This document shows, one piece after another, positions 11,337-39,857 of a DNA stretch of 64,000 nt. The translations under genes and the position numbers were made by a program. The stretch lies in the IMG/VR virus record IMGVR_UViG_3300010355_000588; one strand, given 5' to 3'. The notes beneath the pieces are model-generated. The model was not told the origin of the DNA. It worked only from the letters and a program-made list of their open reading frames with translations, and ran no database searches. Within the stretch, counting starts at the first letter, position 1, and every line of letters starts with the position of its first letter. Source of the stretch: a virus (taxonomy: Duplodnaviria > Caudoviricetes).

Positions 11337-12323
11337 TTAGACTGTAAAGGTTAGATCCAAATATTTTGTAGCATATTTTTTGGTGGTGCTGATTCTGACA
11401 TTGGTTATCTTAGGACTGAAGGCAAGCTCCATAAGCTCTCTTACCATTGGGTGGGCTGCCTTAGATTCTCGAAGACTCCTGATATATTTCCACTGGTCAT
11501 CAGTTGCTGTCATGATTAGTTCGGTCTTAAGACCATTTGGCAAGACACTGCGCGCCATTTGCGGACTTAACCCTTGGTTCAATAAGCACTCATATGCTTG
11601 GGCTGACAAAAGCATCGATTTCTTAATAGTGTCAGAATCATATTCGATGAAGGTTATTTCTTCTCCATAATTGCAGTATCTAGTGGATTCTTGGCTAAAG
11701 GAAGCAAGCCGGTGTCTGACAAGCTCGTGAGAAATGCCACGGTCGGTGACGAAGCGAAACGTGGAATATTTGGTGTCTTGCTCGAAGACATACGAATGGC
11801 CGGCAATCATGCCAGCGTGAGTCTTCATTGCTGTAGTAGAAAAAGAAAGCAATCTATCGAACTCAGGAAAGATCCTACATAATTCTCTGACTACATAATT
11901 GATTTCTATCTTTTTGGCAATAGAACCAAAAGTCGGATCGTTCCATGTTTGGTTTAGTAGAATTGCCCAAGATCTAAGATTTCCAGATATCTCCAATGCT
12001 TTCTCATCCTGTACAGTGACCTCCCTATATTCCATTCCTTCGAAGATCAGCATGTATTTTTCAAACTCGCTGAGATATGAAGAACGGGGCGTCTCTTTAC
12101 AGAATAAGCGCCTCATACTGATCCTAACATGTTCCAATACGCTATGATGGCCATTCTTGACGATCTTCTCATAGAATGCCAATGCAGACCCTTCTTTGAT
12201 CTTGTCTTCAGACTTGTAGCACACCCTTCCACATATCTCGATCTTCTTGAGGATGTCTTTTTCGTCGATGCGCTCAGCAGACTGAGGAACAAAGCGCACT
12301 GTCAAGCTTCTAGATTTATTCAT
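11337..12323 (-). CDS. thyX: FAD-dependent thymidylate synthase
   Basis: ELVRHRLASFSQESTRY signature; GHHSVLEH. Confidence 0.93.
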   Translation of the reverse strand: MNKSRSLTVRFVPQSAERIDEKDILKKIEICGRVCYKSEDKIKEGSALAFYEKIVKNGHHSVLEHVRISMRRLFCKETPRSSYLSEFEKYMLIFEGMEYREVTVQDEKALEISGNLRSWAILLNQTWNDPTFGSIAKKIEINYVVRELCRIFPEFDRLLSFSTTAMKTHAGMIAGHSYVFEQDTKYSTFRFVTDRGISHELVRHRLASFSQESTRYCNYGEEITFIEYDSDTIKKSMLLSAQAYECLLNQGLSPQMARSVLPNGLKTELIMTATDDQWKYIRSLRESKAAHPMVRELMELAFSPKITNVRISTTKKYATKYLDLTFTV

Positions 12324-19320: not shown

Positions 19321-19885
19321 TCAGATCGAAAATAAATCGAAATTTTTCTGCTTCAGATACTCCTTACGCTTGTCTGCCTTGGAACTCGAAAGCCAGTCAT
19401 CGACAATCTGGACGTCAGTAGCTTCGTCGAAGTCTATCTTGACTACGAATTTGTCCATGCCGACCTTCTTTACCAGATCGCGTAACTCCTCAGTCTTCCA
19501 GGTGCCAAGACCCTTGTAGTAATGTTGTTTATATTTAGATACATCGTTCTTGGCGACGAAGGCCTGGTAGTCTGGAAGATTCATGAAATGGTGGACGATC
19601 TTTCCTTTAGAATCTTTCAGCGTGACAATCGGGGTCTGAAGCTTGTAGATGTTGTTCTTCAGGATTTCTTTGAAGTGCTTGTAAAAAAGACCGATGTAAA
19701 GACCAGTGATATGTGAACCAGTTACTCCCCAACTAACCATCACCATCAGCATCTGTAGCGATGATGATTTTGTCAAAGTTGCTGGTTCTATCTACCTGGT
19801 TGCAGTTCATGGTTCTTCTTACATTAGTCTGTTGTTGGTAGGCGTTCATATCTACCTTAGACTTGTTGATCTTTTTGAACTTCAT
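19321..19885 (-). CDS. Topoisomerase II gp60-like subunit interrupted by a 19-nt coding gap (join 19885-19736 + 19716-19321, about 181 aa)
   Basis: 5' part MKFKK...IATDADGDG then TAG; 3' part GSHITGL...YYKGLGT in +1 frame; joining restores DADxDGSHI. Confidence 0.85.
19717..19738 (-). promoter_or_regulatory. Candidate translational bypass element
   Basis: GGT TAG TTGGGGAGTAACT GGT. Confidence 0.7.
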
Positions 19886-22891: not shown

Positions 22892-22917
22892 AAAAAAGGA
22901 GGAAAATAAATTCCTCC
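22892..22917 (-). terminator. Intrinsic terminator ending the polymerase/modification operon
   Basis: GGAGGAA...TTCCTCC followed by T-tract. Confidence 0.65.
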
Positions 22918-22946: not shown

Positions 22947-23801
22947 TCAGTTCTTTTCTACCAGCCACTTGACGAACTTGTTCTTGTTGAGATACTTGCT
23001 TTCGAGAAGCGCCTCTTTTACGTCTGGTCTGATTGTAGAGGTATCGCCAACGAACATTGATTCAGTCAGCTTCGGCGTAGAATTCTTGGCGAATGGGAAC
23101 TTGAGCATGTTGCCAAACGTCTCATAGTCCTTTTCATAGATATGGTACGAGACAGAATGGTGGATATATTCGCCAAGTTCGAGATCTGGATAGTTGTCGA
23201 GAAGCTGAAGCCTCATCTGCTGCATGAGAAGCGTGAAGAATGGAACATCATATACGATCCCGAAGAAAGCATCTGAACTGCGCATGAACATGGTCAGATT
23301 GAGCTTGTCATTCCGGATGTTGAAGACCCCGTTCAGCGTACAGACAAAGTCCTTATTGTCTTGGAACGAGTGGTATGGTTTGCTGAAGCGAACGATAGCC
23401 TGGCGAGTGTCCTCATCTTTTCTGAGCGCGTCGAGAGCCCATTCCCATTCCGTATAGCCAAATTCATTCTTTTCCTTGAAGATCGTATATCCATAGGCTG
23501 ACGAGAGCTTTCCAGTTTCCTTGTCAGCCAACTTGTTCCAGAAATTGGAATATTGGCTGATGTACTTGAGATCGTTCCGCCCGAGGAAATACCACTTGAG
23601 TTCGCCTTTGAGATATTTGTCGCTAGGGCTTCGATTGTCGTTCGAGTAAAGATTGCTATATGGATTGGTGAGTTGGAGCACCATATTCGATACTTCTTTC
23701 ACCTCCATTCCTCTCGGAGATACTGTCGCCTTTGAATCCATTACAGCTTCAATGGACTGCTTATAGATTTCAGCAAACGTCGAACCTTTGATAAGTTGCA
23801 T
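22947..23801 (-). CDS. Thymidylate-synthase-fold enzyme, probably dCMP hydroxymethylase (gp42-like)
   Basis: DTRQA, catalytic KDFVCT, RSSDAFFGIVYD (Asp at the specificity position), SYHIY. Confidence 0.8.
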   Translation of the reverse strand: MQLIKGSTFAEIYKQSIEAVMDSKATVSPRGMEVKEVSNMVLQLTNPYSNLYSNDNRSPSDKYLKGELKWYFLGRNDLKYISQYSNFWNKLADKETGKLSSAYGYTIFKEKNEFGYTEWEWALDALRKDEDTRQAIVRFSKPYHSFQDNKDFVCTLNGVFNIRNDKLNLTMFMRSSDAFFGIVYDVPFFTLLMQQMRLQLLDNYPDLELGEYIHHSVSYHIYEKDYETFGNMLKFPFAKNSTPKLTESMFVGDTSTIRPDVKEALLESKYLNKNKFVKWLVEKN

Positions 23802-23842
23802 AGATATACCTTTATATCAGTTAATGATTCGTTTATGATATG

Positions 23843-24547
23843 TTAGATCGAACGGATGAAGTCGGCTACCTTCTTGACACATTCGACTGGATCTGGATCA
23901 TGGGTGGTGTCGATAGACATGTTCTTGAAGATAGACTTCGAGATATAATACGAGAAGGCGTTCTGGAGCTGGGCGATGTCCTGCACCGAAGGAGCACGTT
24001 CGGTCTTTCTGGTTTCTTTGAACCGACGAGCAACCACCACTGGATCGCATTTCACCTGTACAATAATGACAGGAAGATCGGCATTTTTCCGTTCGAGAGT
24101 TCCTAGATAAGTAGGCACTCGATTGCGAAGCGTCGGAGAATAGATGAACTCGCCGATGTGGGCCCTGTCGAAGATGAAGCTATTTCCAACGTTAGTAGCT
24201 GCTCGAATCATGTCGAACATGAGGTGGAATTGGCCAACCTGAAAGCCATAGCGCTCATCGGTAGTATCGCCGATTGGAAATTGAAAGTGGTGGTACATCA
24301 ATGGATATCCCAAATGCTTTCTAAGCGCTTCGATAAAGGTTGTCTTTCCAGAAGCATCTACTCCTTCGATGATGAGCGAATATTGCTTCATGGGTTTTTC
24401 TTGAGTAGCTTCTGGAACCGTTTCCTGAACAACTACGTCTTGAATTGGAACTTCTTTGACGATAGGATCAACTTCTTTCTGACGTCTGACATATTTGCGC
24501 TTCTTGGGTTCTTCTACAGGTTTTTCTTCTTTTTTGCGACGAGCCAT
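23843..24547 (-). CDS. dNMP (thymidylate-kinase-like) kinase
   Basis: IEGVDASGKTT, IFDR. Confidence 0.85.
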   Translation of the reverse strand: MARRKKEEKPVEEPKKRKYVRRQKEVDPIVKEVPIQDVVVQETVPEATQEKPMKQYSLIIEGVDASGKTTFIEALRKHLGYPLMYHHFQFPIGDTTDERYGFQVGQFHLMFDMIRAATNVGNSFIFDRAHIGEFIYSPTLRNRVPTYLGTLERKNADLPVIIVQVKCDPVVVARRFKETRKTERAPSVQDIAQLQNAFSYYISKSIFKNMSIDTTHDPDPVECVKKVADFIRSI

Positions 24548-24584
24548 TAGCGTTTCTCCTAATTTGTTGGTTTAGTACAATATG

Positions 24585-25169
24585 TCATTTGTTCAGCCAT
24601 TGGACTGTTGAGATTTCGCCAAATTTCGAATTATTTTTACGGTCTTGCCACTCGACAGTGATCCCATGGTCGGCCATTAGTTCGACGTCGAGATATTCGA
24701 GGCTGCCAGTTCCGGATAAATATGTGTCGCCATTAACCATTTTGATCAGTTGGATCAGCCGTTCAGTCTTTGTCTTTTCAGTAGGATAATCGAACGCGAT
24801 CTCGGTAGATATGCCAAGCATCTCCATAGTTTTCATGATAATGGCGATATTGCTAACAGCTAAAAATTCGCCAACGCATTCGTCATATATAGACAGCGCC
24901 TTTCCATCCTTGCCAAGAGAGCATTTGATCTTATTCCAGTTTCTAGCTGGATCTACGTATTTCTTATCGATGATCTTGTCTTCCAGATGCCCACGAGATA
25001 CCGGCATGGTGTACCACTTGCCCAAGTGGTTGAAACGTCGCTGATAGCCTTCGTACCAAAACTGGCACTGAGTTAGAATGACGAAGACGTCTACTGATGC
25101 CATCTTCTCATAATATGGCATCCAAGGCACGAAATTTGGCTGATGGATAGCTACTTTAGTTTTAGACAT
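24585..25169 (-). CDS. WbqC-like protein
   Basis: IHQPNFVPW..Y.K....DVFV; RL; YLSG.G...Y. Confidence 0.85.
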   Translation of the reverse strand: MSKTKVAIHQPNFVPWMPYYEKMASVDVFVILTQCQFWYEGYQRRFNHLGKWYTMPVSRGHLEDKIIDKKYVDPARNWNKIKCSLGKDGKALSIYDECVGEFLAVSNIAIIMKTMEMLGISTEIAFDYPTEKTKTERLIQLIKMVNGDTYLSGTGSLEYLDVELMADHGITVEWQDRKNNSKFGEISTVQWLNK

Positions 25170-25177
25170 GCCGAACC

Positions 25178-25864
25178 TCAGATTAGTTTGCTATTGGATA
25201 GAACGACAAGGCAATCAGCCATCATGTTATGCTCAATGACAACGTTCGGAGTTACGCTGAGAGCAGAGTCAAGAACGAGCGAAGGAGAGAAATATTCGAA
25301 GGTCGGTTCACGCTTCAAACACCAGGCTGATGGAAAATTGCAAAATACCATATTAGACATCTTTATCATTTCGTTGAAGAAAGTAGTTAGAAATTTAGGA
25401 TGCCAGGCTGGAAAACCACGATTGTTGAATAGACCAGAGACTATCGTACAGTCGAAATTGCCATATGTTTCTTGAAATATTGAGAAATCTAAAGCATCGT
25501 CGAGAAAAAATGCTATGTCGTTTACATTGCCATATGTCTTATTGGCATATCTGATGAATGCTGGATTGTTGTCAATGCCAACATATTTAGAAAAACCATC
25601 TTTATGTATTTCACAAAAGCCACCAAACCCACAGCCAATTTCAAATATAGAAAAAGACTCAAAATTTTTGCAATATTTAGCCATCTGATCGTAACGGACC
25701 ACCGCTGAAACAATAGACTTCCAGTGAAGCAACTGCCATTTGTCTGGATGGTTTTCAATGTCTTCGACCGTAAGCGATTCTGTCTTATAGAATTCCTTAT
25801 CAATCTTGGCGTTGATGTTTTGAGCATTATCCATAATGGCCGTAATTGGATAGAATACTGGCAT
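25178..25864 (-). CDS. Class I SAM-dependent methyltransferase
   Basis: EIGCGFG motif I, YVGID, FD..IVSGLFN. Confidence 0.85.
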   Translation of the reverse strand: MPVFYPITAIMDNAQNINAKIDKEFYKTESLTVEDIENHPDKWQLLHWKSIVSAVVRYDQMAKYCKNFESFSIFEIGCGFGGFCEIHKDGFSKYVGIDNNPAFIRYANKTYGNVNDIAFFLDDALDFSIFQETYGNFDCTIVSGLFNNRGFPAWHPKFLTTFFNEMIKMSNMVFCNFPSAWCLKREPTFEYFSPSLVLDSALSVTPNVVIEHNMMADCLVVLSNSKLI

Positions 25865-25875
25865 TGTCCATCTCC

Positions 25876-26523
25876 TTAGATAGTATAATTAATATGTTTG
25901 ATCTGATAAGCTTCAGCATATTCAGCATAACAGAATTGTCCATGATAGGCAGCAGTGGCCTTGATCTTCTTGACGTAGAAATTGTCGTTCTTCTTACACT
26001 GAGACGGAAAGCATTCCAACATATGGTCAGTCTTGTAGTTAAGCATTTCTTCAGAAAGTGGCATGTACATGTTTGGAATGAAGTCGATGCTAGTGGCTGC
26101 TTCGTAATAAATTAACGAACACTTTCTACTTGCGTCAGTAGCTGCTTCTCCAACAGTACGATGATCGATATGAGTATCGAGAGGAAATGGAGCAAAGACG
26201 AACTTAATGTCATGTCTAGAAATAGTATCCTCAATCTCATCTCGAAGTTCGTTATAGTGTTCGTTTAGCGTTCTAACAACAAATGGATAGGTAGGGCGTT
26301 CCAACCAAAAGTTTAGATTGAAATGCGCCTTAAGTATACGTTCAGATTCTTTTTGTTCGTGCCAACGTGGATCGTCGTCGATAGTATGGCAGATATTTAG
26401 AATATGAACTGCCTTTCCCTTAGAGGTGACGTCCTTAGCAATTTGGACAAAGGCTCCGAGACAAGAAATTTCCATGTCGTCAGAGTGAGTAGATACAAAT
26501 AGTGTCTTGTCCGTAATGGTCAT
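25876..26523 (-). CDS. PIG-L/LmbE family de-N-acetylase
   Basis: HSDD and HIDH metal motifs; SQ; YAEAY. Confidence 0.88.
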   Translation of the reverse strand: MTITDKTLFVSTHSDDMEISCLGAFVQIAKDVTSKGKAVHILNICHTIDDDPRWHEQKESERILKAHFNLNFWLERPTYPFVVRTLNEHYNELRDEIEDTISRHDIKFVFAPFPLDTHIDHRTVGEAATDASRKCSLIYYEAATSIDFIPNMYMPLSEEMLNYKTDHMLECFPSQCKKNDNFYVKKIKATAAYHGQFCYAEYAEAYQIKHINYTI

Positions 26524-27794
26524 CTAATCCATTCCTTTCCAGTCAGTCGTTTGTAGTCAGCATGAAAAATGTCGCAAATAAACGTGCCATCATAATATTC
26601 TGGTTTTAGGCGATTGTTTTGTTCTATTAGCAATTTGACATAGAAGTCATGATCAGTCATTACTTTATGTATTTTTTCGCGAAAATTCATGGGGTTAACT
26701 CGAAGAAAGTGGTCGAGTGGAAAGACATGGCCCTGGGTATCGTATTCTTTAGCCATGAAGGCGATGCACCCTGGATCGTCGATGGATCTACCGTTCATTG
26801 TCTCACACCATTTAGTAGTAGCCCATTTCTCAGTAATAAGAAGCGATATTTTAGTAGCCTTCATTAGTTCGGCCAACTCGTTCATGTCCTTAGGTCCTTT
26901 GAAGCGAGGATCAGCTTCTAGAATTTCGTCACGCCACTTTCCATAAATCTCGACGTTCTTGATGCAGTTAGGAGTATCCCACTTGCCAATATATTTCATC
27001 AGTGTTGGATATCTATCGGGATTGCCATTGGAGTCTTCCTGGTTCAGAACGATTCTAAACTGATTGAGCTTCTTCTTGGCTAACTCTGGAATCTGTTCGA
27101 TGGGGGTCTTCTGTTGGTAGTTCAAGAAGAGAGTCTCCAACCCTACATATTTCGCAGGTATCTTCGTCCTGACAAGCTTTCTTGGCTTGGCATCCTCGAA
27201 GCATCTAATAGTCTCAGCCCAATCTATGCAAGGCGAATCGAACTGCGTTAGAAGCAACGACGGTAGATTAGCCTGATATAATTCCTTCTCTCTGGTCATT
27301 AGATATCTAGAGTCGTTCGAATAATATGACTTAGGTACCTCTACATGGTCGTTCAGAACATATAGAATAGGAGCTGTCATACGCTTGTTCTGAGCGAGTA
27401 CCTTCTGACATTTCTTTCCTTTAGCACTGGCCATAGTGATGAAGTTGGGCATATTAATATCCCCAGTGGGCCCTGCTAGAATGACAAAATAATCGATCTT
27501 GGCCTTCTTGACTTGTTCGTTAAGTAGCTTGAAATATTCCCAGCTCTCGCAAGTAGCTTCATTGCACGTCAAACCCTCAGTCAAATCGAAGACGTTGGAA
27601 TATTTGAACTGGGCCTTGATCTCGTCAGAACAAGTAGACAGATCGTTTCGGCCGAAGATGAAGATTTTGTCCTTCGGATGATGGTTGGCGAGTAGATTGA
27701 CCATCTTCGGAGCATTCAAATCTCCGCCTGTGGGTTTCCAATGGTCTGGATTGAAATGAATGGCACGTCCGAGGCGCGCATATGCTATGTTCAT
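26520..27794 (-). CDS. GT-B glycosyltransferase, T4 beta-glucosyltransferase-like
   Basis: NDSRY; C-terminal TTKWCETM...EYDTQ...EQN..L resembles T4 BGT (comparison from memory). Confidence 0.6.
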   Translation of the reverse strand: MNIAYARLGRAIHFNPDHWKPTGGDLNAPKMVNLLANHHPKDKIFIFGRNDLSTCSDEIKAQFKYSNVFDLTEGLTCNEATCESWEYFKLLNEQVKKAKIDYFVILAGPTGDINMPNFITMASAKGKKCQKVLAQNKRMTAPILYVLNDHVEVPKSYYSNDSRYLMTREKELYQANLPSLLLTQFDSPCIDWAETIRCFEDAKPRKLVRTKIPAKYVGLETLFLNYQQKTPIEQIPELAKKKLNQFRIVLNQEDSNGNPDRYPTLMKYIGKWDTPNCIKNVEIYGKWRDEILEADPRFKGPKDMNELAELMKATKISLLITEKWATTKWCETMNGRSIDDPGCIAFMAKEYDTQGHVFPLDHFLRVNPMNFREKIHKVMTDHDFYVKLLIEQNNRLKPEYYDGTFICDIFHADYKRLTGKEWIR

Positions 27795-28288
27795 CAGTTC
27801 TTCTCCTCAGTGGCAGGCACCATATCTGCCTTGATTCTTTCCCAGATTTCTTCAGGAGTCATCTCGAGAAATTCCCTGGGTCTCACTGCCTTGTCGTCGA
27901 TGTACATTCCACAATATGTTCCAGCAAATGGCAGATGACCCTGGGCAAATGGCTTGCCAAATACGAGTTCGCTATATTCTACATTATGTCTATCAAGCCA
28001 ATCTATTACAGTTGGGGCGATGTTTTCTTCGATCTGTCTTAAATTTCGCCGATAAGTATACATGCCACGGCTAGTGAAGTAGATAATATATACCCCTTTC
28101 CGATGCATTTCGTTTAGCTTATTAATCATTGGCCAAACCGGCTTGGCATTCTTATAGTCCCATCTGCCATTGTTGAGTTCAGCGTGAAGAATGGTGTTGT
28201 CGATGTCTACTACGAGCGATTTGTCGTTCTCATATAGACGTCCCTTCTCTTTTTCCATCAGTGCAATTGCTTCTTTAGAATATTCCAT
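27794..28288 (-). CDS. HAD-family phosphatase
   Basis: DIDNT, TSR, GKP, YIDDKA. Confidence 0.85.
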   Translation of the reverse strand: MEYSKEAIALMEKEKGRLYENDKSLVVDIDNTILHAELNNGRWDYKNAKPVWPMINKLNEMHRKGVYIIYFTSRGMYTYRRNLRQIEENIAPTVIDWLDRHNVEYSELVFGKPFAQGHLPFAGTYCGMYIDDKAVRPREFLEMTPEEIWERIKADMVPATEEKN

Positions 28289-28316
28289 GATGCTATCTCC
28301 TTTGATTCAATTTGAC

Positions 28317-29591
28317 CTAAATATCCATCACCGACTGCTCAAACTTGGAATTTTTTGTACTTTTTATTGCTTCAGTAATGTCAGCAAGCTCCAAGATGTC
28401 TGGCAGTGAAGCGATGAAGTGTTCTTGTTTTAGACCATTGTTGGTTTGAAGGATGATTCTAGCCTTCTTGCCGAAACTGTCGTGAGTACCTTCGAGAATG
28501 GACACCACGTTGCGATGGACGTAGTTGGCGAAGTTGACCGGAACACCCTGAGCCATGTGAGCCACTGAGCCTTTGTCGGTGAACTTGAAGTCAGTCGGAT
28601 ATCCCATAATGGCAGCATATTCCCTCAAGTAGAACGGACGTCTTTCTTCCACGTTGTACAGACGAATATAGCTCGTCATGCTCGGAGCCCTCGGAGTGTT
28701 CTTGAAGATGCTAATCGGATATCCAGCGTCGAAATATGCCTTCCGTTGGCTGAGCTTCTCCACCACTCGTTCGAAGGCTGTCCGGAGCAGATTGTATTTG
28801 TCGTCCTTCAAGAGCCTTTTCCATTCGTATTCGTTGGAATACTTTGCGAACATGGATATGGTGCTATCTCGCTTGACGCTTTTCTCTTTCTCGAAGATTT
28901 CATCCACCATTTCGCGATTTTTCTCAATGAAGTCATATAGCTGCTGGTGAGCTGTCACATCTGGCTTGGCATCGAATGGATATTTCTCGCATTCGGTTGG
29001 GAGCAAGTCCAGGACGTTTTTGGTTCTGACGTCTTCTGGAAACAGCGTGAAGTTGGTGGTGCCGAAACGTTGCTTAGAAAAACCAAGAAATAAGGTTCTC
29101 TTCCTACACATCGGGACGTTATGGAACATCGCAGCATCCTTTGCAAAAAGCAAATTGTAATTGTTCTGGAGGAGGCAAGTAGCTTCTTGGATAATTGGCC
29201 AGCCGATCTTGGAAAGCAATGTCGGAGCATTCTCAATGAAGAATACCTTAGGCCTAAGTTCGTCGATAAGTCTGAAAGCTCTCTTTAGATAATCGTTCAT
29301 CTTGCTTTCGGTATGAGCTGCCAAAGAACCGGCGGAGAGACCAGAGCATGGAGGGTTGGAATAAAAATAGTCGTACTTTTCTTCCTTCAGCTTGGATATG
29401 TATTCTGGGGTGTCCCATTCAGATGGCTTCAAGATTTTCAGATCCGGTCGGTTCAACTTCAGGTGTTGGCTGTTTCCCTCGAGACAACCCTCAGTATTCT
29501 CCAGGATGGTGTCCTGTTCGAACTTGCCGATCATCTCAGCTCCTAGATAATTCGAGCCTGTAAAGATAGCATATGAGATCGCTTTGAACAT
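28317..29591 (-). CDS. DNA cytosine-C5 methyltransferase-like protein
   Basis: PPC (IV), ENA (VI), RKR (VIII), QGVP (X); motif I divergent (IFTGSNY). Confidence 0.78.
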   Translation of the reverse strand: MFKAISYAIFTGSNYLGAEMIGKFEQDTILENTEGCLEGNSQHLKLNRPDLKILKPSEWDTPEYISKLKEEKYDYFYSNPPCSGLSAGSLAAHTESKMNDYLKRAFRLIDELRPKVFFIENAPTLLSKIGWPIIQEATCLLQNNYNLLFAKDAAMFHNVPMCRKRTLFLGFSKQRFGTTNFTLFPEDVRTKNVLDLLPTECEKYPFDAKPDVTAHQQLYDFIEKNREMVDEIFEKEKSVKRDSTISMFAKYSNEYEWKRLLKDDKYNLLRTAFERVVEKLSQRKAYFDAGYPISIFKNTPRAPSMTSYIRLYNVEERRPFYLREYAAIMGYPTDFKFTDKGSVAHMAQGVPVNFANYVHRNVVSILEGTHDSFGKKARIILQTNNGLKQEHFIASLPDILELADITEAIKSTKNSKFEQSVMDI

Positions 29592-29605
29592 ATCGCTCCT
29601 TAGAT

Positions 29606-32236
29606 TTATAGATCGTTGATTGAGGCTTCAAATTGCACGTTGGGATCGAAGTTGTTCCATCTGTAGATTTCGATGAATGCTTCGAGCGGACCGAGCACGC
29701 AGCGTTGGAACATCTTTTTGTAGTCTGGCTTGAAGCGAGTCATCCATTCTTTAGGACAGTCGCCTTTCCATCCAATGACGTCGACTCCGAACTCGTTGGA
29801 AGTAGAACAGTAGATATAGCGGATCCGGTCACCAACCGAGATCTTTTCGCATTTCTTGTTAAGCTTCAGCTTGTCGACGATCTGATTGTAGTAGATAGCT
29901 GCTCTGGCATGGGATCCAGATCCTTTTTCCACCTGAAGAAATCCAGGCGAGTCTTTCTTGGACGAATAGTTCTGGATAAGGGCAAGCGAATCGTAGGGCA
30001 GCTTCTGAAACTGTTCCCAGGTTTCCTCGCACCACTGTCTGAAGTCAGTAGCTGTCCAATGGTCAGTCAACGCATGTTCTACCACATATTGCAGACGCTT
30101 CTTAATGTCGAGGGGCAGCTCATTCTTCTTGATGTCCAATCCAGTATATTTGAACTTGGAAATGACTTCGTCTCCGCCTTCGTTGCGGATATGGAGCATG
30201 TAACGTTTCTTAGTAGTAGTTACTGCGCCACTACAGAAAGATTCGCGTTTGAACTCGATGCGCTTAAGAGGCGAGTTGAATCGCTTCTGGGTATATTTGA
30301 AGCATTCTTCGTTTAGTCTATCAGTGAAGATGTCGAGCTTTTCGCATACCTTAATAATTTCGTCTGGATTCCATTCTTTAGGAATATAGCCTAACGTATT
30401 TTTCACCATTTCCGCAACGTTCAAATAAAGGCTATCGGTATCTCCAAAGATTGTAACGGTATTGGTTTGCGTATCTACCCCATATGTATTCTGAAAATAC
30501 TCATCGATTAGCTTAGACATGTGTTTGATGATATCTTGACCAGTAAGGGTTACAGCCTCAGCAGAATCTCTATCGGCCAATGGAAAATATTTATTAGAAA
30601 GAACTCCATATAAAGAATTTAGAAAAATCTTATAAGACTGCTGAGTTGTATCGTACTTTATGATTTTATCTTCGATTTCCTTCAGCTTCTCCGGGGATAT
30701 CTTCTTACCTTCTTCCTTCATCTTTCTCAACGAGGCCTTTCCTGCCGAAGCCATCTTGCGGTATTTCACTCGTTCGTTGTATAGCCGCTTGATGAAGGAT
30801 GGCATGATTCCAGGCTTCAGCTCTGGATTGACATATAGGACGTTGTTTCCAGAGATGGTGCACTGTCCATTGCTGAGCATGTCCTTGAATTTCTGCTTGC
30901 TAACTGCCTTGTTTCCAGTTTCTGTCTTTATCGTGACATGTTCTTCCGATGATGCCTGGACAATCTTGCCAATCTTGGTCTCTGGAGAGATGTTCAGGAG
31001 AACCATAATATTAGGGTATAGAGAATTGAAGTCAAATGAACATACACCACCTCGATATACCCCCACTTGAGATGGAAATACATAAGCACCTTCGATTCCC
31101 ATGGCCGGAGGTTCCTTGCGATTGTCTGATAGAATTTTCTTTCCATGTTTAGCACACTCCAATGTTATTGCGCCATAGATATAAGGAAACGACTTGAAGA
31201 TATTTTCATATTCGCAGAGTCCGAGATTGCAAATCTTCCTAGTCAGCTCGATCAGCTTCAGTTTGGCTTCGAGCTTCACAAGAAGCCTGACGTCGTGGAT
31301 GTTGTATTCGATATATAGCGAGAAGTCAGACTGCCAGAATTCCATGAACGATTCGTATGGACTGGAGACCTTTTGGTCGCCGAGTTCGTCCTGGCATATG
31401 GCGTCGAGCTTGTACGACTGTTTGGATCCGGTGGCGAACTTTTCAGCATACAAAGGGAAGTAGTCAAGGACAGAAATGCCACCGAAGCGGAAGGTGTTGT
31501 TCCAGCGACCTTTGGTGTTGGTCTGATGCTTCTTGACTTCCTTGATAGGGCTGAGGCGAACGACCTGCTCCTCGCCGAGAACCTTTTCGATGCGAGCCAC
31601 CAGATATGGAATGTCATAGCCGTCGATATTCCATCCAGTGAGAACGTCGGGATAATGAGATTCCCACCAAGACAAGAGGCAGATTAGTAGCGCCTGTTCA
31701 TTTTTGCAGGGGTGGTAGGATACGTTATCCATGCTGGGTGGAACAAATGGCTTTGGCGATGATCCAGCATGTTCTAAACTATAAAAGCAATTATAGGTCT
31801 CGGTGAGCGAATCGAAGATAGTAAGAACGTTGATGGGGCATTTGGCAAGCTTGGGCATTGCTTCTTCTCGGTCTTCCATGCTAGCAACTTCCAAGTCGAG
31901 ATATGCGATGCGGAGAGGGTGCTTCTGGAAATCTTCTTCTTCCTGAGTTCCGGCGAAGAGGTCGAAGAGGAACTCGCGGGTGGGTGGGAGCGATTCGAAG
32001 GTTCTGAGGTTTGGATTGGACGTAATCCACCGTTTCCGGTCAGCCACTGACTTGAATTGCTTTCTGGCCAACTTCGTATCGAACATGCTGACATATTCGC
32101 CGTGGGGATCTTCGTAGTAGAGATGAGATGAGTGATTTATCCATTTCTCGACGCGGTTGCCTTCAGCATCCCAACCAGCAAACCAGACGTGTCCGTTCCA
32201 GTCGGCGTCGATCTTGTACGATACGTTTCTATACAT
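29606..32236 (-). CDS. Family B DNA polymerase (gp43-like)
   Basis: DLE exonuclease, GWN...YD, DFNSLYP, K...NSLYG, GDTDS, KKRY. Confidence 0.96.
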   Translation of the reverse strand: MYRNVSYKIDADWNGHVWFAGWDAEGNRVEKWINHSSHLYYEDPHGEYVSMFDTKLARKQFKSVADRKRWITSNPNLRTFESLPPTREFLFDLFAGTQEEEDFQKHPLRIAYLDLEVASMEDREEAMPKLAKCPINVLTIFDSLTETYNCFYSLEHAGSSPKPFVPPSMDNVSYHPCKNEQALLICLLSWWESHYPDVLTGWNIDGYDIPYLVARIEKVLGEEQVVRLSPIKEVKKHQTNTKGRWNNTFRFGGISVLDYFPLYAEKFATGSKQSYKLDAICQDELGDQKVSSPYESFMEFWQSDFSLYIEYNIHDVRLLVKLEAKLKLIELTRKICNLGLCEYENIFKSFPYIYGAITLECAKHGKKILSDNRKEPPAMGIEGAYVFPSQVGVYRGGVCSFDFNSLYPNIMVLLNISPETKIGKIVQASSEEHVTIKTETGNKAVSKQKFKDMLSNGQCTISGNNVLYVNPELKPGIMPSFIKRLYNERVKYRKMASAGKASLRKMKEEGKKISPEKLKEIEDKIIKYDTTQQSYKIFLNSLYGVLSNKYFPLADRDSAEAVTLTGQDIIKHMSKLIDEYFQNTYGVDTQTNTVTIFGDTDSLYLNVAEMVKNTLGYIPKEWNPDEIIKVCEKLDIFTDRLNEECFKYTQKRFNSPLKRIEFKRESFCSGAVTTTKKRYMLHIRNEGGDEVISKFKYTGLDIKKNELPLDIKKRLQYVVEHALTDHWTATDFRQWCEETWEQFQKLPYDSLALIQNYSSKKDSPGFLQVEKGSGSHARAAIYYNQIVDKLKLNKKCEKISVGDRIRYIYCSTSNEFGVDVIGWKGDCPKEWMTRFKPDYKKMFQRCVLGPLEAFIEIYRWNNFDPNVQFEASINDL

Positions 32237-33848: not shown

Positions 33849-34136
33849 TTATTTTTGATAATATTCTTTCATAAGTTTTTCGATGTCTTTTCTAAAGCGG
33901 ACTAGCTCTCTGCGTACGTCTTTCACGTCAGTTAAATCGCTCCCGCTTACTAAAGACTGGTTAGCTACGAAATATAGCGCGCCTGATAGATATGCGAAGT
34001 AATGACGGTCTACCTCAACCCTTTCAGTAGTTCCATCTTTCTTATTTCTATCTCCAAATACTGCAACGATCCAATCTGTATGGTTTCCGAAAATTTCGCA
34101 GTTTTCGAACTTGAATCTGGCTTTGGCGTCCTTCAT
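33849..34136 (-). CDS. Hypothetical protein
   Basis: ATGA-coupled ORF. Confidence 0.6.
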   Translation of the reverse strand: MKDAKARFKFENCEIFGNHTDWIVAVFGDRNKKDGTTERVEVDRHYFAYLSGALYFVANQSLVSGSDLTDVKDVRRELVRFRKDIEKLMKEYYQK

Positions 34137-34555
34137 TGTCTGATCTCCTTAGAATATTGAACTACTTCAATGCCGGCTTGCTTTAGAAAGTCTACTGCGT
34201 CTGAAATTCTATATAGCTCCTTATAGATAACTCGGATTATCATCGATTGAATGATTATTTTTGCACAATCATAACATGGACTCAGAGTAATATACATGGT
34301 CGCGCCAGCTGTCGATATGCCTGCTCGAGCGCATTTGGCTATGAGATTTTGTTCGGTATGAATGACGATCGGCAAGGTGTTGCCAAATTCGTCCTCGCAT
34401 TTGTTGTCCCAACCTGTCGGGGTTCCATTCCAGCCTGTAGATATGACGTTCTTATCTTTTACTAGAAGCCCTCCAACTTTCTTACGGTTGGAGTACGACA
34501 TTTCTGCCGCTCTGATAGCTAAATCCATATATAGATCGTCATACTTGTCAAACAT
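34133..34555 (-). CDS. dCMP deaminase
   Basis: KVG, GWNG.P.G, HTEQN, SPCYDC. Confidence 0.9.
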   Translation of the reverse strand: MFDKYDDLYMDLAIRAAEMSYSNRKKVGGLLVKDKNVISTGWNGTPTGWDNKCEDEFGNTLPIVIHTEQNLIAKCARAGISTAGATMYITLSPCYDCAKIIIQSMIIRVIYKELYRISDAVDFLKQAGIEVVQYSKEIRQ

Positions 34556-35079
34556 CAGGTAGCTCCCGTACTTCCAAATCCACCTTCGCCTCTGGCAGAT
34601 GACTTTTCCTTGTACATTTCTTCTGCCGTAGAAATTTCGACCAATTCTACTTTAGGCACCGGCAACAGAATGAATTGAGAAAGCTTAGATCCAAATGGAA
34701 TAATGGCCATTCCATGAGCTGCTGTATTGACAAAGGACAAATGGATCTCTCCCATGTAGTCTTCGTCTACCAAAGCTGCCCCGATGTCTAAGCCTGTTTT
34801 AGTAAAGACGCCTGACTTATTAACCGCCAATAAACAATAGCCTTTTGGAATATCCACCTTGATGCCAGATGGAATTTTAATGCGCTCGCCTGGATCTACT
34901 GTGATGGATTGGATTTCCCAGTCGAGATTTTTGTTCATGACCAGATCGTCGTCTGGCTTGAAATCTGAAGGTTGGAAATATGGAACGAAGAAATCGATGC
35001 CAGCTGAACCATCAGTACCTTTAGCCGGTTCTTTCACATGCCGAGTCTTTGCAAATTTGAGCTGAAGCAGTTCTTCCAT
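34555..35079 (-). CDS. dut: Trimeric dUTPase
   Basis: SAGIDF, KSG, VDEDYMGEI, RGEGGFGSTG. Confidence 0.92.
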   Translation of the reverse strand: MEELLQLKFAKTRHVKEPAKGTDGSAGIDFFVPYFQPSDFKPDDDLVMNKNLDWEIQSITVDPGERIKIPSGIKVDIPKGYCLLAVNKSGVFTKTGLDIGAALVDEDYMGEIHLSFVNTAAHGMAIIPFGSKLSQFILLPVPKVELVEISTAEEMYKEKSSARGEGGFGSTGAT

Positions 35080-35705: not shown

Positions 35706-36245
35706 TTATGCGTGATTTTCTATTTTATCAGCAATGTTGTTCAATGCTAGATAAGTATCTCCGTTAACTTCTAATGTTGTCTTTATTGCCCCCAGCGTAG
35801 TATCAATATTACCTAGTTCAACATTGGTATTCACTAAGGTTTGGTCAACGCCATAGACAGCTCCTGAAACAGCTACGATAGCTGCTGTATTCTCAAGCAA
35901 CCGTTCATCTAAAGTAATCGTATTGTTATTGATACTTTCTAACTGTTGAGCAATTGTTTCCAAAATATCGTAGATAAAGTCGATGGATTTGGTCTCATCT
36001 GGAACGATTCTATAGAATACGTAAACTAGCTGTTTCATGACAATGTCTTGTACAGCTCTGCGTCTTGTTCTAGGTGCTTGATATGTATAGCCAGGCACTA
36101 CGTTTTCTATCTGGAGCCGATGATCAGCAGGAAATCCAGGATCGGTGGTTACTTCAGTCACCCATTCGTGGATTTTTTCTTCCATCTTCTCTATGTTAAG
36201 TTCAGTCGTTACTACGAATCTAAATATCTTTACTTGAGAATTCAT
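35706..36245 (-). CDS. Hypothetical protein with C-terminal coiled coil
   Basis: ATGA-coupled ORF. Confidence 0.55.
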   Translation of the reverse strand: MNSQVKIFRFVVTTELNIEKMEEKIHEWVTEVTTDPGFPADHRLQIENVVPGYTYQAPRTRRRAVQDIVMKQLVYVFYRIVPDETKSIDFIYDILETIAQQLESINNNTITLDERLLENTAAIVAVSGAVYGVDQTLVNTNVELGNIDTTLGAIKTTLEVNGDTYLALNNIADKIENHA

Positions 36246-37436: not shown

Positions 37437-37725
37437 TGGCGGCTTCTCCTTCAATTTTTGCTGCGAATTCTTTAACCCATTGCAATAGTGTATCTTGACC
37501 TTCTTTGGAAGAAATCTTGTAAAATAAAGCATATGCAGCAACCCCGCCACCAGAGAGCATTTTGTCTCCATCGCCGGAGATAAGTTTCATGCTGCCATCT
37601 GGATGAAATCCAATGAAAACGACATCTTCTTTTAGCATTTGCTCAATACTAGCAAGTAGATCGTCTTCTTTAATCTGTTCGCTCACTACAATAGCAGTAG
37701 CTTCGTCATTTGCGTTCTTATTCAT
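37429..37725 (-). CDS. Hypothetical protein
   Basis: Start reassigned to MNKNAND. Confidence 0.5.
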   Translation of the reverse strand: MNKNANDEATAIVVSEQIKEDDLLASIEQMLKEDVVFIGFHPDGSMKLISGDGDKMLSGGGVAAYALFYKISSKEGQDTLLQWVKEFAAKIEGEAANG

Positions 37726-38894
37726 AGTTGCACAGTTCCTTTCATAGTTTCTGGATCGTATTTTGAATAATCTACCGATAGACATCTCTGAGGTAAGGTG
37801 AATAACTTCAGCCACTTGGAGATGTTCTTCTCCATCCACCACCCATTCTTAGAATTCTCATCGCCATAATCTACTTTGTTCCGATTGTCCTTGACTACGT
37901 CTAAATATTTGCTCTGGCCTGAAAACAGTTTGTCGAGCTTGTTCTGCAATCCATTCGCGTCGTCGAAAGTCCATTCAGTATATTTGGAATAGGTCACTAG
38001 ATTCTGAGCCAACACTGGAATTCCCATCGCCCAACCTTCTATGAGTTTGATATTGGACTTGCAACGGTTGAAAATATTGTCCTGAAGAGGCGCCACAATG
38101 GCGTCGTAACCGCGTTCATGTAACTCACGGGGGTAGTTCAAGATATCGCTTCCAGCGTGCATTTTTATGTCGCCGGATTTTACCAGATCGATAAGCTGAT
38201 GAGGACAGGCACCTCCCATGAAGTGCCACTCGTATTTCTTGATAGTGTTCTTGATGAAGTCGATATATGGAGTAAGATCGTCGATGCAGTCGTTTTGCTT
38301 CTCGACGTCGAAGTGCGAGACGCTTAGGGGAAATACGATCTTTCGCTTAATTCTCTGGCGGTTGAAGCGTGACTTGATTCGTTCTATATCGTACATCTCA
38401 CCAATCCACCATCTCGGGAGATAGTTTGGAATAATGACGATCCGGTTAGCATCTACCTCAAATTTAGACACATAATATTGCTTCAGTTCTTCAGTAGTGG
38501 TGGTTACGATGTCCATGGTGTTGAGCATGGCTTTGAGATTCTCCATGATCTTAGGCTCTTGGTACATCTTGCGGCCGATGTTATACTTGGGAATATCTTC
38601 CCCGCCTAGAACGTCGTCCACATCCATCGACAGCCAGAAGCCCATCGTATCCCGCAGTGGCTTCAGGAAGTTCGTGACGAAGTGGCAAGACCCAGGACTG
38701 ATAGGCTTTTGGGTTTGGATGAGTTTTAGACCTCGATAGAATTCGGTGTCTAGAATATAGCGCATCGATTCGGTTCGAACGATCTTATCTTTTAGCAATG
38801 AACGCGTTACGTAAAATGGAAAATGTAAACGGTACGTACTGCAACCACTTGCGTCGCTAGGGATACTGAGGATATGCGAAACGGTTTTACTCAT
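37722..38894 (-). CDS. GT-B glycosyltransferase (phage type)
   Basis: DASGCSTYRL..P, DVDD, IPNYLP, APL.DN.FNRCKSNIKLIE. Confidence 0.8.
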   Translation of the reverse strand: MSKTVSHILSIPSDASGCSTYRLHFPFYVTRSLLKDKIVRTESMRYILDTEFYRGLKLIQTQKPISPGSCHFVTNFLKPLRDTMGFWLSMDVDDVLGGEDIPKYNIGRKMYQEPKIMENLKAMLNTMDIVTTTTEELKQYYVSKFEVDANRIVIIPNYLPRWWIGEMYDIERIKSRFNRQRIKRKIVFPLSVSHFDVEKQNDCIDDLTPYIDFIKNTIKKYEWHFMGGACPHQLIDLVKSGDIKMHAGSDILNYPRELHERGYDAIVAPLQDNIFNRCKSNIKLIEGWAMGIPVLAQNLVTYSKYTEWTFDDANGLQNKLDKLFSGQSKYLDVVKDNRNKVDYGDENSKNGWWMEKNISKWLKLFTLPQRCLSVDYSKYDPETMKGTVQL

Positions 38895-38940
38895 TACTAA
38901 CTCCAAATTTTATTTAGTACACTATGACACAAAATAAAAA

Positions 38941-39732: not shown

Positions 39733-39767
39733 ATCGCGCTCCATATTGATGTGGTTAAGATTATTTA

Positions 39768-39802: not shown

Positions 39803-39857
39803 AAGCTCTCAGTTACCACACCAATGAGCAATATTATTTAGAGTATTCTTGGCCAAC

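What the first reader, a model, noticed from the sequence alone, without database searches (positions are those of the whole stretch)
22947..32236. Polymerase-linked cluster for a probable amino-sugar hypermodified cytosine
Seen, in one co-oriented run: PolB, C5-MTase, HAD phosphatase, BGT-like GT-B, PIG-L deacetylase, SAM methyltransferase, WbqC, dNMP kinase, TS-fold enzyme, then a terminator. Established: T-even phages use dCMP hydroxymethylase, kinase and glucosyltransferase to make glucosyl-hmC; PIG-L enzymes de-N-acetylate GlcNAc; WbqC is a proposed glycine transferase for amino sugars. Inference: hmdC is incorporated, receives an N-acetyl-hexosamine, is deacetylated, then N-glycylated and/or methylated, giving a bulky, possibly cationic base against restriction and CRISPR. 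I do not know this combination as a characterised DNA modification pathway.
Basis: partly seen in the sequence, partly recalled or inferred. Interest (0 to 1): 0.88.

Follow-up and report, generated by a model that had tools for sequence, protein, structure and literature searches.

The report
Phage hmC amino-sugar DNA modification cluster
An uncultured T4-like phage has the genes to replace cytosine with hydroxymethylcytosine and attach a sugar to it, plus three extra enzymes that probably turn that sugar into an amino-acid-bearing, methylated amino sugar, a DNA decoration that has not been described chemically.

Summary
All nine genes and the terminator are present as described, on the minus strand of a complete 164-kb T4-like virus genome.

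- **TS-fold enzyme:** it carries the full signature of a T4-type dCMP hydroxymethylase. It is not a thymidylate synthase or a 5-hydroxycytosine synthase, and a separate ThyX supplies thymidylate.
- **424-aa protein:** it folds as a GT-B whose best structural match is T4 beta-glucosyltransferase (Z 22).
- **Conserved core:** glycosyltransferase, C5-methyltransferase homologue, kinase, hydroxymethylase and PolB recur together in over 80 uncultured viral contigs and one cultured Pseudoalteromonas phage. The sugar genes between them differ from contig to contig.
- **This genome only:** the PIG-L deacetylase, SAM methyltransferase and WbqC occur in none of the 80 related loci fetched.
- **WbqC:** its best structural match is BshC (Z 11.9). 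GT, PIG-L and WbqC therefore mirror the three steps of bacillithiol and mycothiol synthesis: add GlcNAc, deacetylate, ligate an amino acid.
- **Recurrence elsewhere:** WbqC and PIG-L are adjacent in 38 of 55 viral loci, and one contig repeats the order GT, PIG-L, MTase, WbqC.

This scan has already noted similar amino-sugar cassettes in other phages. I rate it a new variant of a known kind.

The parts
29606..32236 (-). Family B DNA polymerase (T4 gp43-like), first gene of the run
   Evidence: PF00136 9e-34, PF03104 4e-15, phrog_262 9e-171. About 30% identical to the pelagiphage and cyanophage gp43.
28317..29591 (-). C5-cytosine DNA methyltransferase homologue; role unexplained
   Evidence: PF00145 1e-17. 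PPC (motif IV), ENA (motif VI), RxR (motif VIII) and C-terminal motifs are kept; motif I is degenerate. A homologue lies in 78 of 81 loci with a GT relative, directly next to the GT in those inspected.
27794..28288 (-). HAD-superfamily phosphatase of the 1xpj / EcbF-BcbF family
   Evidence: PDB 1xpj 1e-22, 9iqw 2e-7; TIGR01689 6e-29; DxDxT motif present. Present in 69 of 81 related loci, there fused to or beside a kinase and a nucleotidyltransferase.
26520..27794 (-). GT-B glycosyltransferase with a T4 beta-glucosyltransferase-like fold; predicted DNA hmC glycosyltransferase
   Evidence: AF2 pLDDT 87. Foldseek top six hits are T4 BGT, E 6e-9. VIA: BGT Z 21-22 with 314-318 residues aligned, BshA 19.2, T4 AGT 17.3, HY126 DNA GT 17.0. 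219 viral relatives, linked to a TS homologue and a C5-MTase.
25876..26523 (-). PIG-L/LmbE-family de-N-acetylase
   Evidence: PF02585 3.5e-9; TIGR04001 BshB1 1e-9; phrog_11796. THSDD and HIDH metal/catalytic motifs. Start overlaps the GT stop.
25178..25864 (-). Class I SAM-dependent methyltransferase, substrate unknown
   Evidence: Methyltransf_25/11/12. Weak match to sugar O-MTase TIGR04371. ExGxGxG motif. An MTase gene directly upstream of WbqC also occurs in L087, L096 and L123.
24585..25169 (-). WbqC-family protein; predicted ATP-dependent ligase that acylates an amino sugar
   Evidence: PF08889 2e-26. AF2 pLDDT 91. VIA wide search: BshC 4wbd Z 11.9, rmsd 2.9, 188 of 194 residues aligned; class I LysRS Z 10.3; other HUP-fold enzymes Z 7-8 or lower.
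23843..24547 (-). P-loop, thymidylate-kinase-like nucleotide kinase with a 52-residue basic N-terminal extension
   Evidence: Thymidylate_kin 9e-6 (below cut-off), phrog_761 1e-15, TIGR00041 2e-7. GxxxSGKTT P-loop. Relatives have 181-191-aa kinases in the same position.
22947..23801 (-). ThyA-fold enzyme with the dCMP hydroxymethylase signature (predicted 5hm-dCMP synthase)
   Evidence: Best PDB matches are MilA 5e-17 and T4 gp42 3e-14. Residues D151/C154/D177/D185 correspond to L143D, C146, D169 and N177D, the criteria given in PMC13326640. It is the only ThyA-family gene in the genome.
22898..22917 (-). Terminator-like hairpin with a T-run, closing the run
   Evidence: 7-bp stem with 4 GC pairs, then TTTTTTGTTT.
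34555..35079 (-). dUTPase-superfamily protein; candidate dUTP/dCTP pyrophosphatase (function not tested)
   Evidence: PF00692 1e-10, phrog_135 3e-35. The orthologous position in L145 carries DCD and dUTPase domains.
34133..34555 (-). dCMP deaminase
   Evidence: phrog_174 2.5e-53. Homologues detected in 50 ORFs of the fetched related loci.
37722..38906 (-). Second glycosyltransferase (GT4-like); possible second sugar-adding step, link not established
   Evidence: phrog_7162 2.5e-21; weak Glyco_transf_4 match. No PDB sequence match. Only 24% identical to a GT near WbqC in L105.
11337..12323 (-). ThyX-type thymidylate synthase, which leaves the ThyA homologue free for another reaction
   Evidence: PF02511 2e-33, phrog_85 3e-27.

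Best explanation
The run is a DNA cytosine-hypermodification pathway of an uncultured T4-like phage.

**Steps supported by sequence or fold**
1. The ThyA homologue makes 5-hydroxymethyl-dCMP.
2. The Tmk-like kinase, together with host enzymes, raises it to the triphosphate, and PolB incorporates it.
3. The BGT-like GT-B enzyme glycosylates hmC in DNA.

**Inferred steps**
4. The donor is a host UDP-N-acetylhexosamine, because this cassette lacks the sugar kinase and nucleotidyltransferase that relatives carry.
5. The PIG-L enzyme removes the N-acetyl group.
6. WbqC, a BshC-like HUP-fold enzyme, ligates an amino acid or another small carboxylate to the freed amine.
7. The SAM methyltransferase adds a methyl group.

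Steps 5 to 7 may act on the DNA-bound sugar, as in bacillithiol and mycothiol synthesis, or on the nucleotide sugar before transfer. I rate these about equally likely. The product would be a bulky, possibly charged hmC adduct that blocks restriction and other DNA-targeting defences.

The roles of the C5-MTase homologue and of the stand-alone HAD phosphatase are not explained.
For: **Hydroxymethylase**
- Best PDB matches are MilA and T4 gp42.
- The D/C/D/D signature is present in the window and in all 41 TS homologues next to GT relatives. The criteria come from PMC13326640.
- ThyX is present elsewhere in the window, and this is the only ThyA-family gene in the genome.

**Glycosyltransferase**
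- T4 BGT is the top structural hit by Foldseek and VIA.
- The family is linked to a TS homologue, a C5-MTase and PolB in 80 fetched viral loci, in the cultured phage XG4 and in Enterococcus phage Planchet.
- Relatives have the HAD-APH, cytidylyltransferase and GT-B architecture that Pyle et al. showed to make heptosyl-5hmC.

**Tailoring enzymes**
- PIG-L keeps its catalytic motifs.
- WbqC best matches BshC, Z 11.9.
- WbqC and PIG-L are adjacent in 38 of 55 viral loci.
- The order GT, PIG-L, MTase, WbqC recurs beside a UDP-GlcNAc 2-epimerase in L123.
- GT4, WbqC and LmbE form an operon with an aaRS and a tRNA in bacteria (PMC10404621).
- WbqC follows a DegT aminotransferase, at the position where an N-acyltransferase would be expected by analogy with pseudaminic and legionaminic acid pathways (from memory, not tested), in nonulosonic-acid-type clusters.

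**Operon structure**
- Gene starts and stops overlap or lie close together, and there is a single terminator.
Against: - There are no chemical data of any kind.
- PIG-L, the MTase and WbqC are absent from all 80 fetched loci with GT relatives. None of the 55 viral WbqC loci has a BGT-like GT or a TS homologue within 10 kb. The link between the two halves therefore rests on this one genome.
- The closest WbqC homologues sit in nucleotide-sugar clusters or in a structural gene module, where the target need not be DNA.
- The WbqC-BshC similarity is structural only; a sequence profile finds nothing. To my knowledge, BshC's own ligase activity has not been reconstituted in vitro.
- Foldseek matches for WbqC are weak.
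- BshA scores close to BGT for the GT (Z 19.2 against 21.9).
- The donor sugar is unknown.
- A C5-MTase homologue has no obvious substrate in fully hmC-substituted DNA.
Confidence: 0.55

Rival explanations
1. Plain glycosyl-hmC only. The hydroxymethylase, kinase and BGT-like GT make an ordinary sugar-hmC. PIG-L, the MTase and WbqC (perhaps with the second GT at 37722-38906) build a tailored sugar for a different target, such as virion proteins or the host envelope, and lie here by chance of insertion.
For: WbqC and PIG-L relatives lie in nucleotide-sugar clusters with a dehydratase, aminotransferase, NeuB and CMP-transferase. In L105 they lie between the capsid and adaptor genes. PIG-L and the MTase have lower GC3 (0.39) than their neighbours (0.49-0.59), which suggests a separate origin. 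No GT relative carries them.
Against: The three genes are inserted inside the hmC operon, between the GT and the kinase and hydroxymethylase. The GT/PIG-L start and stop overlap, and the run shares one terminator. In the window the only further glycosyltransferase I identified is the weakly characterised one at 37722-38906, 5.5 kb beyond PolB, and only part of the window was annotated. The slot they occupy holds the DNA-sugar supply genes in relatives.
Confidence: 0.22
2. Small-molecule pathway. The GT-B enzyme, PIG-L and WbqC form a phage-borne bacillithiol/mycothiol-like route to a low-molecular-weight glycoside (GlcNAc on a small acceptor, deacetylated, then aminoacylated). This would be an auxiliary metabolic function, not a DNA modification.
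For: BshA is the second-best structural match of the GT (Z 19.2). BshB1 is the best NCBIfam match of PIG-L. BshC is the best structural match of WbqC.
Against: The GT family is tied to a dCMP hydroxymethylase, a C5-MTase and PolB in over 80 loci that lack PIG-L and WbqC. T4 BGT, not BshA, is the top hit by two methods. Relatives share the architecture of a GT-B cluster shown to act on 5hmC in DNA.
Confidence: 0.08
3. Post-replicative route. The C5-MTase homologue makes 5mC, which an unrecognised oxidase converts to 5hmC for the GT, as in the MT/5mYOX/GT clusters. The ThyA homologue would then serve another purpose.
For: The C5-MTase homologue is the gene most tightly linked to the GT (78 of 81 loci) and keeps the catalytic PPC, ENx and RxR motifs. 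MT/5mYOX/GT-B clusters are known.
Against: No Tet_JBP match anywhere in the genome, even at E 1. The ThyA homologue has the complete hydroxymethylase signature, conserved in 41 of 41 relatives, with a kinase, a dCMP deaminase and a dUTPase-family gene alongside.
Confidence: 0.07

Closest known systems
T-even phage glucosyl-hydroxymethylcytosine system (T4 gp42 dCMP hydroxymethylase, gp1 dNMP kinase, gp56 dCTPase, alpha- and beta-glucosyltransferase)
   Same: A ThyA-fold enzyme with the hydroxymethylase signature, a nucleotide kinase, a dCMP deaminase, a dUTPase-family gene, PolB and a GT-B whose best structural match is T4 BGT. The genome is T4-like.
   Different: The GT is only 12-14% identical to BGT. 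The kinase is Tmk-like and has no match to any solved structure, including T4 gp1. A C5-MTase homologue is part of the conserved core. A deacetylase, a methyltransferase and a WbqC ligase-like enzyme are added. The donor sugar is probably not glucose.
Metavirome GT-B hypermodification clusters of Pyle et al. 2023 (bioRxiv 10.1101/2023.12.21.572611), e.g. 'contig 53' (HAD-APH, cytidylyltransferase, BGT-like GT-B; heptosyl- and diheptosyl-5hmC) and the HexNAc-5hmC producers
   Same: The window cluster has a BGT-like GT-B next to a C5-MTase and a HAD phosphatase. Its relatives (L008 type) have the same HAD-APH plus cytidylyltransferase plus GT-B layout. That paper already notes that GT-B enzymes associate with ThyS.
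   Different: Here 5hmC would come from a ThyA homologue, not from MT plus 5mYOX; no Tet_JBP was found. The window lacks the kinase and nucleotidyltransferase. It carries PIG-L, an MTase and WbqC instead, none of which that paper mentions.
Bacillithiol (BshA/BshB/BshC) and mycothiol (MshA/MshB/MshC) biosynthesis
   Same: The same three-step logic and the same folds: a GT-B GlcNAc transferase, a PIG-L/LmbE deacetylase, then a HUP-fold enzyme that adds an amino acid to the freed amine. BshA, BshB1 and BshC are each among the best matches of the three phage proteins.
   Different: The acceptor would be hmC in DNA rather than malate or inositol. WbqC is 194 aa against 540 aa for BshC and shows no detectable sequence similarity. 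An extra methyltransferase is present. The amino acid is unknown.
Arabinosyl-5-hydroxycytosine pathways of RB69, DLP3 and HY126 (Lee et al. 2026, PMC13326640)
   Same: A ThyA homologue, a kinase, a 1xpj-type HAD phosphatase and GT-B DNA glycosyltransferases clustered near the polymerase. The HAD matches 1xpj and 9iqw, and the GT matches the HY126 GT.
   Different: The 5hoC synthase marker D169N is absent; the window enzyme keeps Asp. There are no arabinose isomerase or kinase-uridylyltransferase genes in the cluster.

Membership tests
T4-type dCMP hydroxymethylase (5hm-dCMP synthase) | Catalytic Cys (E. coli ThyA C146) | tested here: met
   C154 in the DFVCT motif aligns with T4 DFMCT.
T4-type dCMP hydroxymethylase (5hm-dCMP synthase) | N177 replaced by Asp (dCMP rather than dUMP as substrate) | tested here: met
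   D185 aligns with the T4 D179 position. Criterion from PMC13326640.
T4-type dCMP hydroxymethylase (5hm-dCMP synthase) | L143 replaced by an acidic residue (hydroxymethyl rather than methyl product) | tested here: met
   D151, three residues before the Cys, as in T4.
T4-type dCMP hydroxymethylase (5hm-dCMP synthase) | Enzyme activity: dCMP plus methylene-THF gives 5hm-dCMP | not testable with these tools
   Needs expression and LC-MS.
5-hydroxy-dCMP synthase (RB69 gp48 / DLP3 gp80 type) | D169 replaced by Asn | tested here: not met
   D177 is retained in the window and in 41 of 41 relatives. Criterion.
T4 beta-glucosyltransferase-like DNA glycosyltransferase | GT-B fold closest to BGT | tested here: met
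   Foldseek top six hits are BGT, E 6e-9. VIA Z 21-22 over 314-318 residues, ahead of BshA at 19.2.
T4 beta-glucosyltransferase-like DNA glycosyltransferase | Sequence membership of the BGT family | tested here: not met
   No Pfam or PHROG hit at all, and 12-14% identity in the structural alignment.
T4 beta-glucosyltransferase-like DNA glycosyltransferase | Transfers a sugar to 5hmC in duplex DNA | not testable with these tools
   Inferred only from linkage to a hydroxymethylase in relatives.
PIG-L / LmbE de-N-acetylase | Pfam domain plus the HxDD and HxxH metal/catalytic motifs | tested here: met
   PF02585 37.7 bits against a cut-off of 28.2. THSDD and HIDH motifs.
WbqC family (PF08889) | Profile match above the gathering score | tested here: met
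   93.4 bits against a cut-off of 21.3. The invariant IHQP motif is shared with 26 homologues.
BshC-like amino-acid-adding enzyme | Structural similarity of the catalytic core | tested here: met
   4wbd_A Z 11.9, rmsd 2.9, 188 of 194 residues aligned. Next are LysRS at 10.3 and others at 7.8 or below.
BshC-like amino-acid-adding enzyme | Sequence homology to BshC | tested here: inconclusive
   A profile of 27 WbqC sequences finds no BshC among PDB sequences, even at E 10.
MT / 5mYOX / GT post-replicative 5hmC clusters (Burke 2021, Pyle 2023) | TET/JBP-type dioxygenase present | tested here: not met
   No PF12851 match in the 164-kb genome at E 1. This is Pfam-level sensitivity only.
MT / 5mYOX / GT post-replicative 5hmC clusters (Burke 2021, Pyle 2023) | C5-cytosine methyltransferase next to the GT | tested here: met
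   PF00145 1e-17. Present beside the GT relative in 78 of 81 loci.

The most novel reading that the evidence does not exclude
A phage rebuilds the bacillithiol/mycothiol three-step chemistry on its own DNA. Hydroxymethylcytosine receives GlcNAc, which is deacetylated in situ. A minimal BshC-like ligase (WbqC) then aminoacylates it, and it is methylated. The result is a DNA base carrying an amino-acid-decorated amino sugar, a class of nucleic-acid modification not yet observed. It would also give the first biochemical handle on the uncharacterised WbqC family.
Probability: 0.3. Interest if true: 0.85.

Novelty: new variant of a known kind. Interest (0 to 1): 0.66.

Why it matters
- **Why these modifications matter:** phage DNA hypermodifications decide which restriction, CRISPR and glycosylase defences a phage escapes, and they supply tools for epigenetic sequencing.
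- **What is already known:** hexose, HexNAc, heptose, Kdo, hexuronate and arabinose adducts of cytosine derivatives.
- **What would be new:** a deacetylated, aminoacylated and methylated amino sugar on hmC would be a new chemical class.
- **A testable case:** each predicted step gives a defined mass shift in an established E. coli reconstitution assay.
- **WbqC:** the case offers a concrete functional hypothesis for this widespread but uncharacterised family, namely a BshC-like amine-acylating ligase.
- **A hot-spot for sugar diversity:** in one T4-like marine phage clade, the slot between PolB and the hydroxymethylase appears to swap sugar cassettes.
- **An open question:** the clade has an unexplained, conserved GT/C5-methyltransferase pair.

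Tried and rejected
**Searches that found nothing**
- Megablast of the 9.3-kb region against GenBank phages: no match.
- A single-sequence pattern scan of IMG/VR with the GT: nothing. The alignment-based scan worked.
- PDB sequence searches for the kinase, PIG-L and the second GT.
- The WbqC profile against PDB sequences gave only chance hits such as kexin.
- Foldseek of the WbqC model gave no match below E 1e-3. Only the exhaustive VIA search found BshC.
- Literature searches for WbqC, PIG-L or LmbE with phage DNA modification, and for phage 9183 cytosine, returned nothing relevant.

**Readings considered and rejected**
- Thymidylate synthase or dUMP hydroxymethylase: Asp at the N177 position, and ThyX is present.
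- 5-hydroxycytosine synthase: D169 is retained.
- dCMP methylase of the XP12 type: acidic residue at L143.
- TET-dependent route: no Tet_JBP match.

**Link left open**
- The second GT (37722-38906) is only 24% identical to a GT near WbqC in L105, so I make no claim for it.

**Not attempted**
- Complex prediction and read mapping, because neither would decide the chemistry.

Full report
**Setting.** The window is the first 64 kb, reverse strand, of a complete 164,165-bp IMG/VR virus record with direct terminal repeats. Almost all genes lie on the window's minus strand and there are four tRNAs. The genome is T4-like. It has a gp43-type PolB about 30% identical to those of pelagiphage and cyanophage T4-likes. 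It also has topoisomerase II subunits, UvsX, a DnaB-like helicase and NrdD/NrdG. Megablast finds no close relative among GenBank phages.

**Observation.**
- Pfam and PHROGs confirm PolB, a C5-MTase homologue, PIG-L, a class I SAM MTase, WbqC, a weak Tmk-like P-loop kinase and a ThyA-fold enzyme.
- Two genes have no Pfam hit and were resolved by other means.
  - The 164-aa protein matches the HAD phosphatase 1xpj (1e-22) and TIGR01689 (6e-29), and has a DxDxT motif.
  - The 424-aa protein gave an AF2 model (pLDDT 87) whose six best Foldseek matches are all T4 beta-glucosyltransferase (E 6e-9). A VIA re-alignment gives BGT Z 21-22 (314-318 residues), BshA 19.2, T4 alpha-GT 17.3 and the HY126 DNA GT 17.0.
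- Intergenic gaps run from -4 to 41 nt, each gene has a Shine-Dalgarno sequence, and HAD/GT and GT/PIG-L overlap.
- A hairpin with a T-run at 22917-22898 follows the last gene, and a promoter-like site comes after it.

**Which base is modified.**
- The ThyA homologue matches MilA (CMP hydroxymethylase, 5e-17) and T4 gp42 (3e-14) better than any thymidylate synthase.
- Lee et al. 2026 (PMC13326640) give diagnostic positions. N177D marks a cytosine substrate. An acidic L143 marks a hydroxymethyl rather than a methyl product. D169N marks 5-hydroxycytosine synthases.
- The window enzyme reads D151, C154, D177, D185. That is L143D, the catalytic Cys, D169 retained and N177D, which is the T4-type hydroxymethylase pattern. 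All 41 full-length ThyA homologues next to GT relatives share it.
- It is the only ThyA-family gene in the genome. A ThyX gene at 11337-12323 can supply dTMP.
- A dCMP deaminase (34133-34555) and a dUTPase-superfamily gene (34555-35079) lie just upstream of PolB. Whether the latter is a dCTPase was not tested.
- No Tet_JBP domain is found in the genome.

**The conserved core and the variable slot.**
- An alignment of 22 GT homologues found 219 related IMG/VR loci, and 80 were fetched.
- Searching their ORFs with the window proteins gave GT in 81 loci, C5-MTase in 78, HAD in 69, ThyA homologue in 42 and PolB in 17. The last two counts are limited by contig ends. In the loci inspected the C5-MTase lies directly beside the GT, and the two overlap by 4 nt in L008. 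PIG-L, the MTase and WbqC were found in none.
- The genes between PolB and the hydroxymethylase differ from locus to locus:
  - two C5-MTase paralogues flanking the GT, with no sugar genes (L145);
  - HAD_2, a 283-aa protein and an NTP_transferase (L147);
  - a HAD-APH fusion, a 305-aa protein and a cytidylyltransferase-like protein (L008);
  - an NTase-APH fusion plus HAD (L021, and the cultured Pseudoalteromonas phage vB_Psh_XG4, which also has a second GT);
  - in Enterococcus phage Planchet: kinase, TS homologue, dUTPase, HAD, GT, GT, RNase H, GT.
- The L008 layout equals 'contig 53' of Pyle et al. There, HAD-APH, the cytidylyltransferase and a BGT-like GT-B together made heptosyl- and diheptosyl-5hmC. 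That paper also reports that GT-B enzymes associate mainly with ThyS.
- The glycosyltransferase family is therefore a DNA hmC glycosyltransferase family by association, and the slot beside it carries the sugar-supply genes.
- The window phage fills that slot with HAD, PIG-L, MTase and WbqC, and has no sugar kinase or nucleotidyltransferase. This argues for an abundant host donor such as UDP-GlcNAc, and it gives the deacetylase something to do.

**The tailoring enzymes.**
- PIG-L keeps the THSDD and HIDH motifs, and its best NCBIfam match is BshB1.
- WbqC was modelled from 27 homologues (pLDDT 91). Foldseek gave only weak HUP-fold hits.
- The exhaustive VIA search put BshC (4wbd) first: Z 11.9, rmsd 2.9, 188 of 194 residues aligned. 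Class I LysRS followed at 10.3, then a plateau of nucleotidyltransferases, aaRS cores and pantothenate synthetase at Z 7-8 or lower. Sequence profiles do not detect this relationship.
- GT-B, PIG-L and WbqC therefore match BshA, BshB and BshC fold for fold. That pathway adds GlcNAc, deacetylates it, then acylates the amine with an amino acid.
- Context supports an amine-acylating role:
  - WbqC and PIG-L are adjacent in 38 of 55 viral WbqC loci.
  - In nonulosonic-acid-type clusters WbqC follows the DegT aminotransferase, where an N-acyltransferase would be expected by analogy with pseudaminic and legionaminic acid pathways. That analogy is from memory and was not tested.
  - Bacterial operons combine GT4, WbqC and LmbE with a dedicated ProRS paralogue and tRNA (PMC10404621).
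  - Contig L123 repeats the order GT, PIG-L, MTase, WbqC next to a UDP-GlcNAc 2-epimerase and a TylF-type sugar O-MTase.
  - An MTase directly upstream of WbqC also occurs in large PolA phages.

**What remains inferred.** Four things are unproven:
- the identity of the sugar;
- the acyl group;
- the methylation site;
- whether tailoring precedes or follows transfer to DNA.

Nucleotide-sugar contexts favour tailoring before transfer. As I recall them (not checked here), known PIG-L enzymes act on glycosides rather than on UDP-sugars. That, together with the GT-first gene order, favours tailoring after transfer.

The link between the hmC half and the tailoring half rests on this single genome. 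No GT relative carries the trio, and no viral WbqC locus carries a BGT-like GT or a TS homologue within 10 kb. In L105 a WbqC/MTase/GT set lies between the capsid and adaptor genes, so non-DNA targets exist for such cassettes. PIG-L and the MTase have lower GC3 than their neighbours, which is consistent with a later insertion.

**Unexplained.**
- The C5-MTase homologue keeps PPC, ENx, RxR and the C-terminal motifs, but its motif I is degenerate. It is the gene most constantly linked to the GT. What it does in a phage predicted to replace C with hmC is not clear.
- The stand-alone HAD lacks its usual kinase and nucleotidyltransferase partners.

**Literature and earlier notes.**
- Full-text searches found HexNAc-5hmC and other glycans (Pyle et al.) and arabinosyl-5hoC (Lee et al.). 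They found no deacetylase, WbqC or aminoacyl step on a DNA sugar.
- This scan had already noted comparable PIG-L/WbqC or PIG-L/GT cassettes in other phages. Most were ParB-coupled or hmU-based, and one note drew the same bacillithiol analogy. I re-derived that analogy here from my own fold search.
- This locus is the version embedded in a T4-type hmC operon.

**Verdict.** It is a new variant of the known hmC-glycosylation kind. It merits experimental follow-up, but it is not categorically new.

Noticed in passing
window 28317-29591, and L005-L084, L145-L147: A C5-cytosine methyltransferase homologue is present beside the BGT-like GT relative in 78 of 81 loci. It overlaps the GT by 4 nt in L008, and two paralogues flank the GT in L145. 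These phages also encode a dCMP hydroxymethylase, so its substrate and role are unclear.
   Followed up: partly
window 23843-24547: The Tmk-like kinase ORF begins with a 52-residue Lys/Arg/Glu-rich extension behind a good AGGAG ribosome-binding site. Kinases at the same position in relatives are 181-191 aa and lack it. It may be a DNA-binding tail or a mis-set start.
   Followed up: partly
window 7001-7819: A QueC-like ATP-pyrophosphatase-fold protein (phrog_1550 5e-14; PF06508 at the cut-off). I did not look for 7-deazaguanine pathway partners.
   Followed up: no
window 11337-12323: The ThyX-type thymidylate synthase is 328 aa, with the Thy1 domain only in residues 174-301. The N-terminal half is unassigned.
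   Followed up: no
window 38941-41810: A homing endonuclease gene (phrog_314 1e-55) lies directly downstream of the anaerobic ribonucleotide reductase nrdD. The NrdD PHROG matches come in two stretches, which hints at a mobile-element insertion.
   Followed up: no
window 37722-38906: A second, GT4-like glycosyltransferase lies 5.5 kb upstream of PolB. The three ORFs next to it, on the PolB side (35706-37571, 296, 148 and 179 aa), have no significant family match and no homologue in any fetched locus. It may add a further sugar.
   Followed up: partly
L105:7805-13099: In a roughly 40-kb SU10-like podovirus contig, a GT2 enzyme, two MTases, WbqC, a kinase-like protein and a GT sit between the major capsid and adaptor genes. 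This suggests glycan tailoring aimed at the virion, or done at packaging.
   Followed up: no
L003 (Vibrio phage vB_VpS_PG28, 7333-14136): A cultured Vibrio siphophage has adjacent PIG-L and WbqC-like genes, then three hypothetical genes, a glycosyltransferase and a ParB/Noc-like gene, just before the terminase. It could serve as a test system for the WbqC/PIG-L pair.
   Followed up: partly
window 19321-19885: Other first-stage notes on this genome propose a 19-nt translational bypass in the topoisomerase gene-60 homologue. I only saw that the topoisomerase large subunit (19882-21435) and a 151-aa ORF abut here.
   Followed up: no
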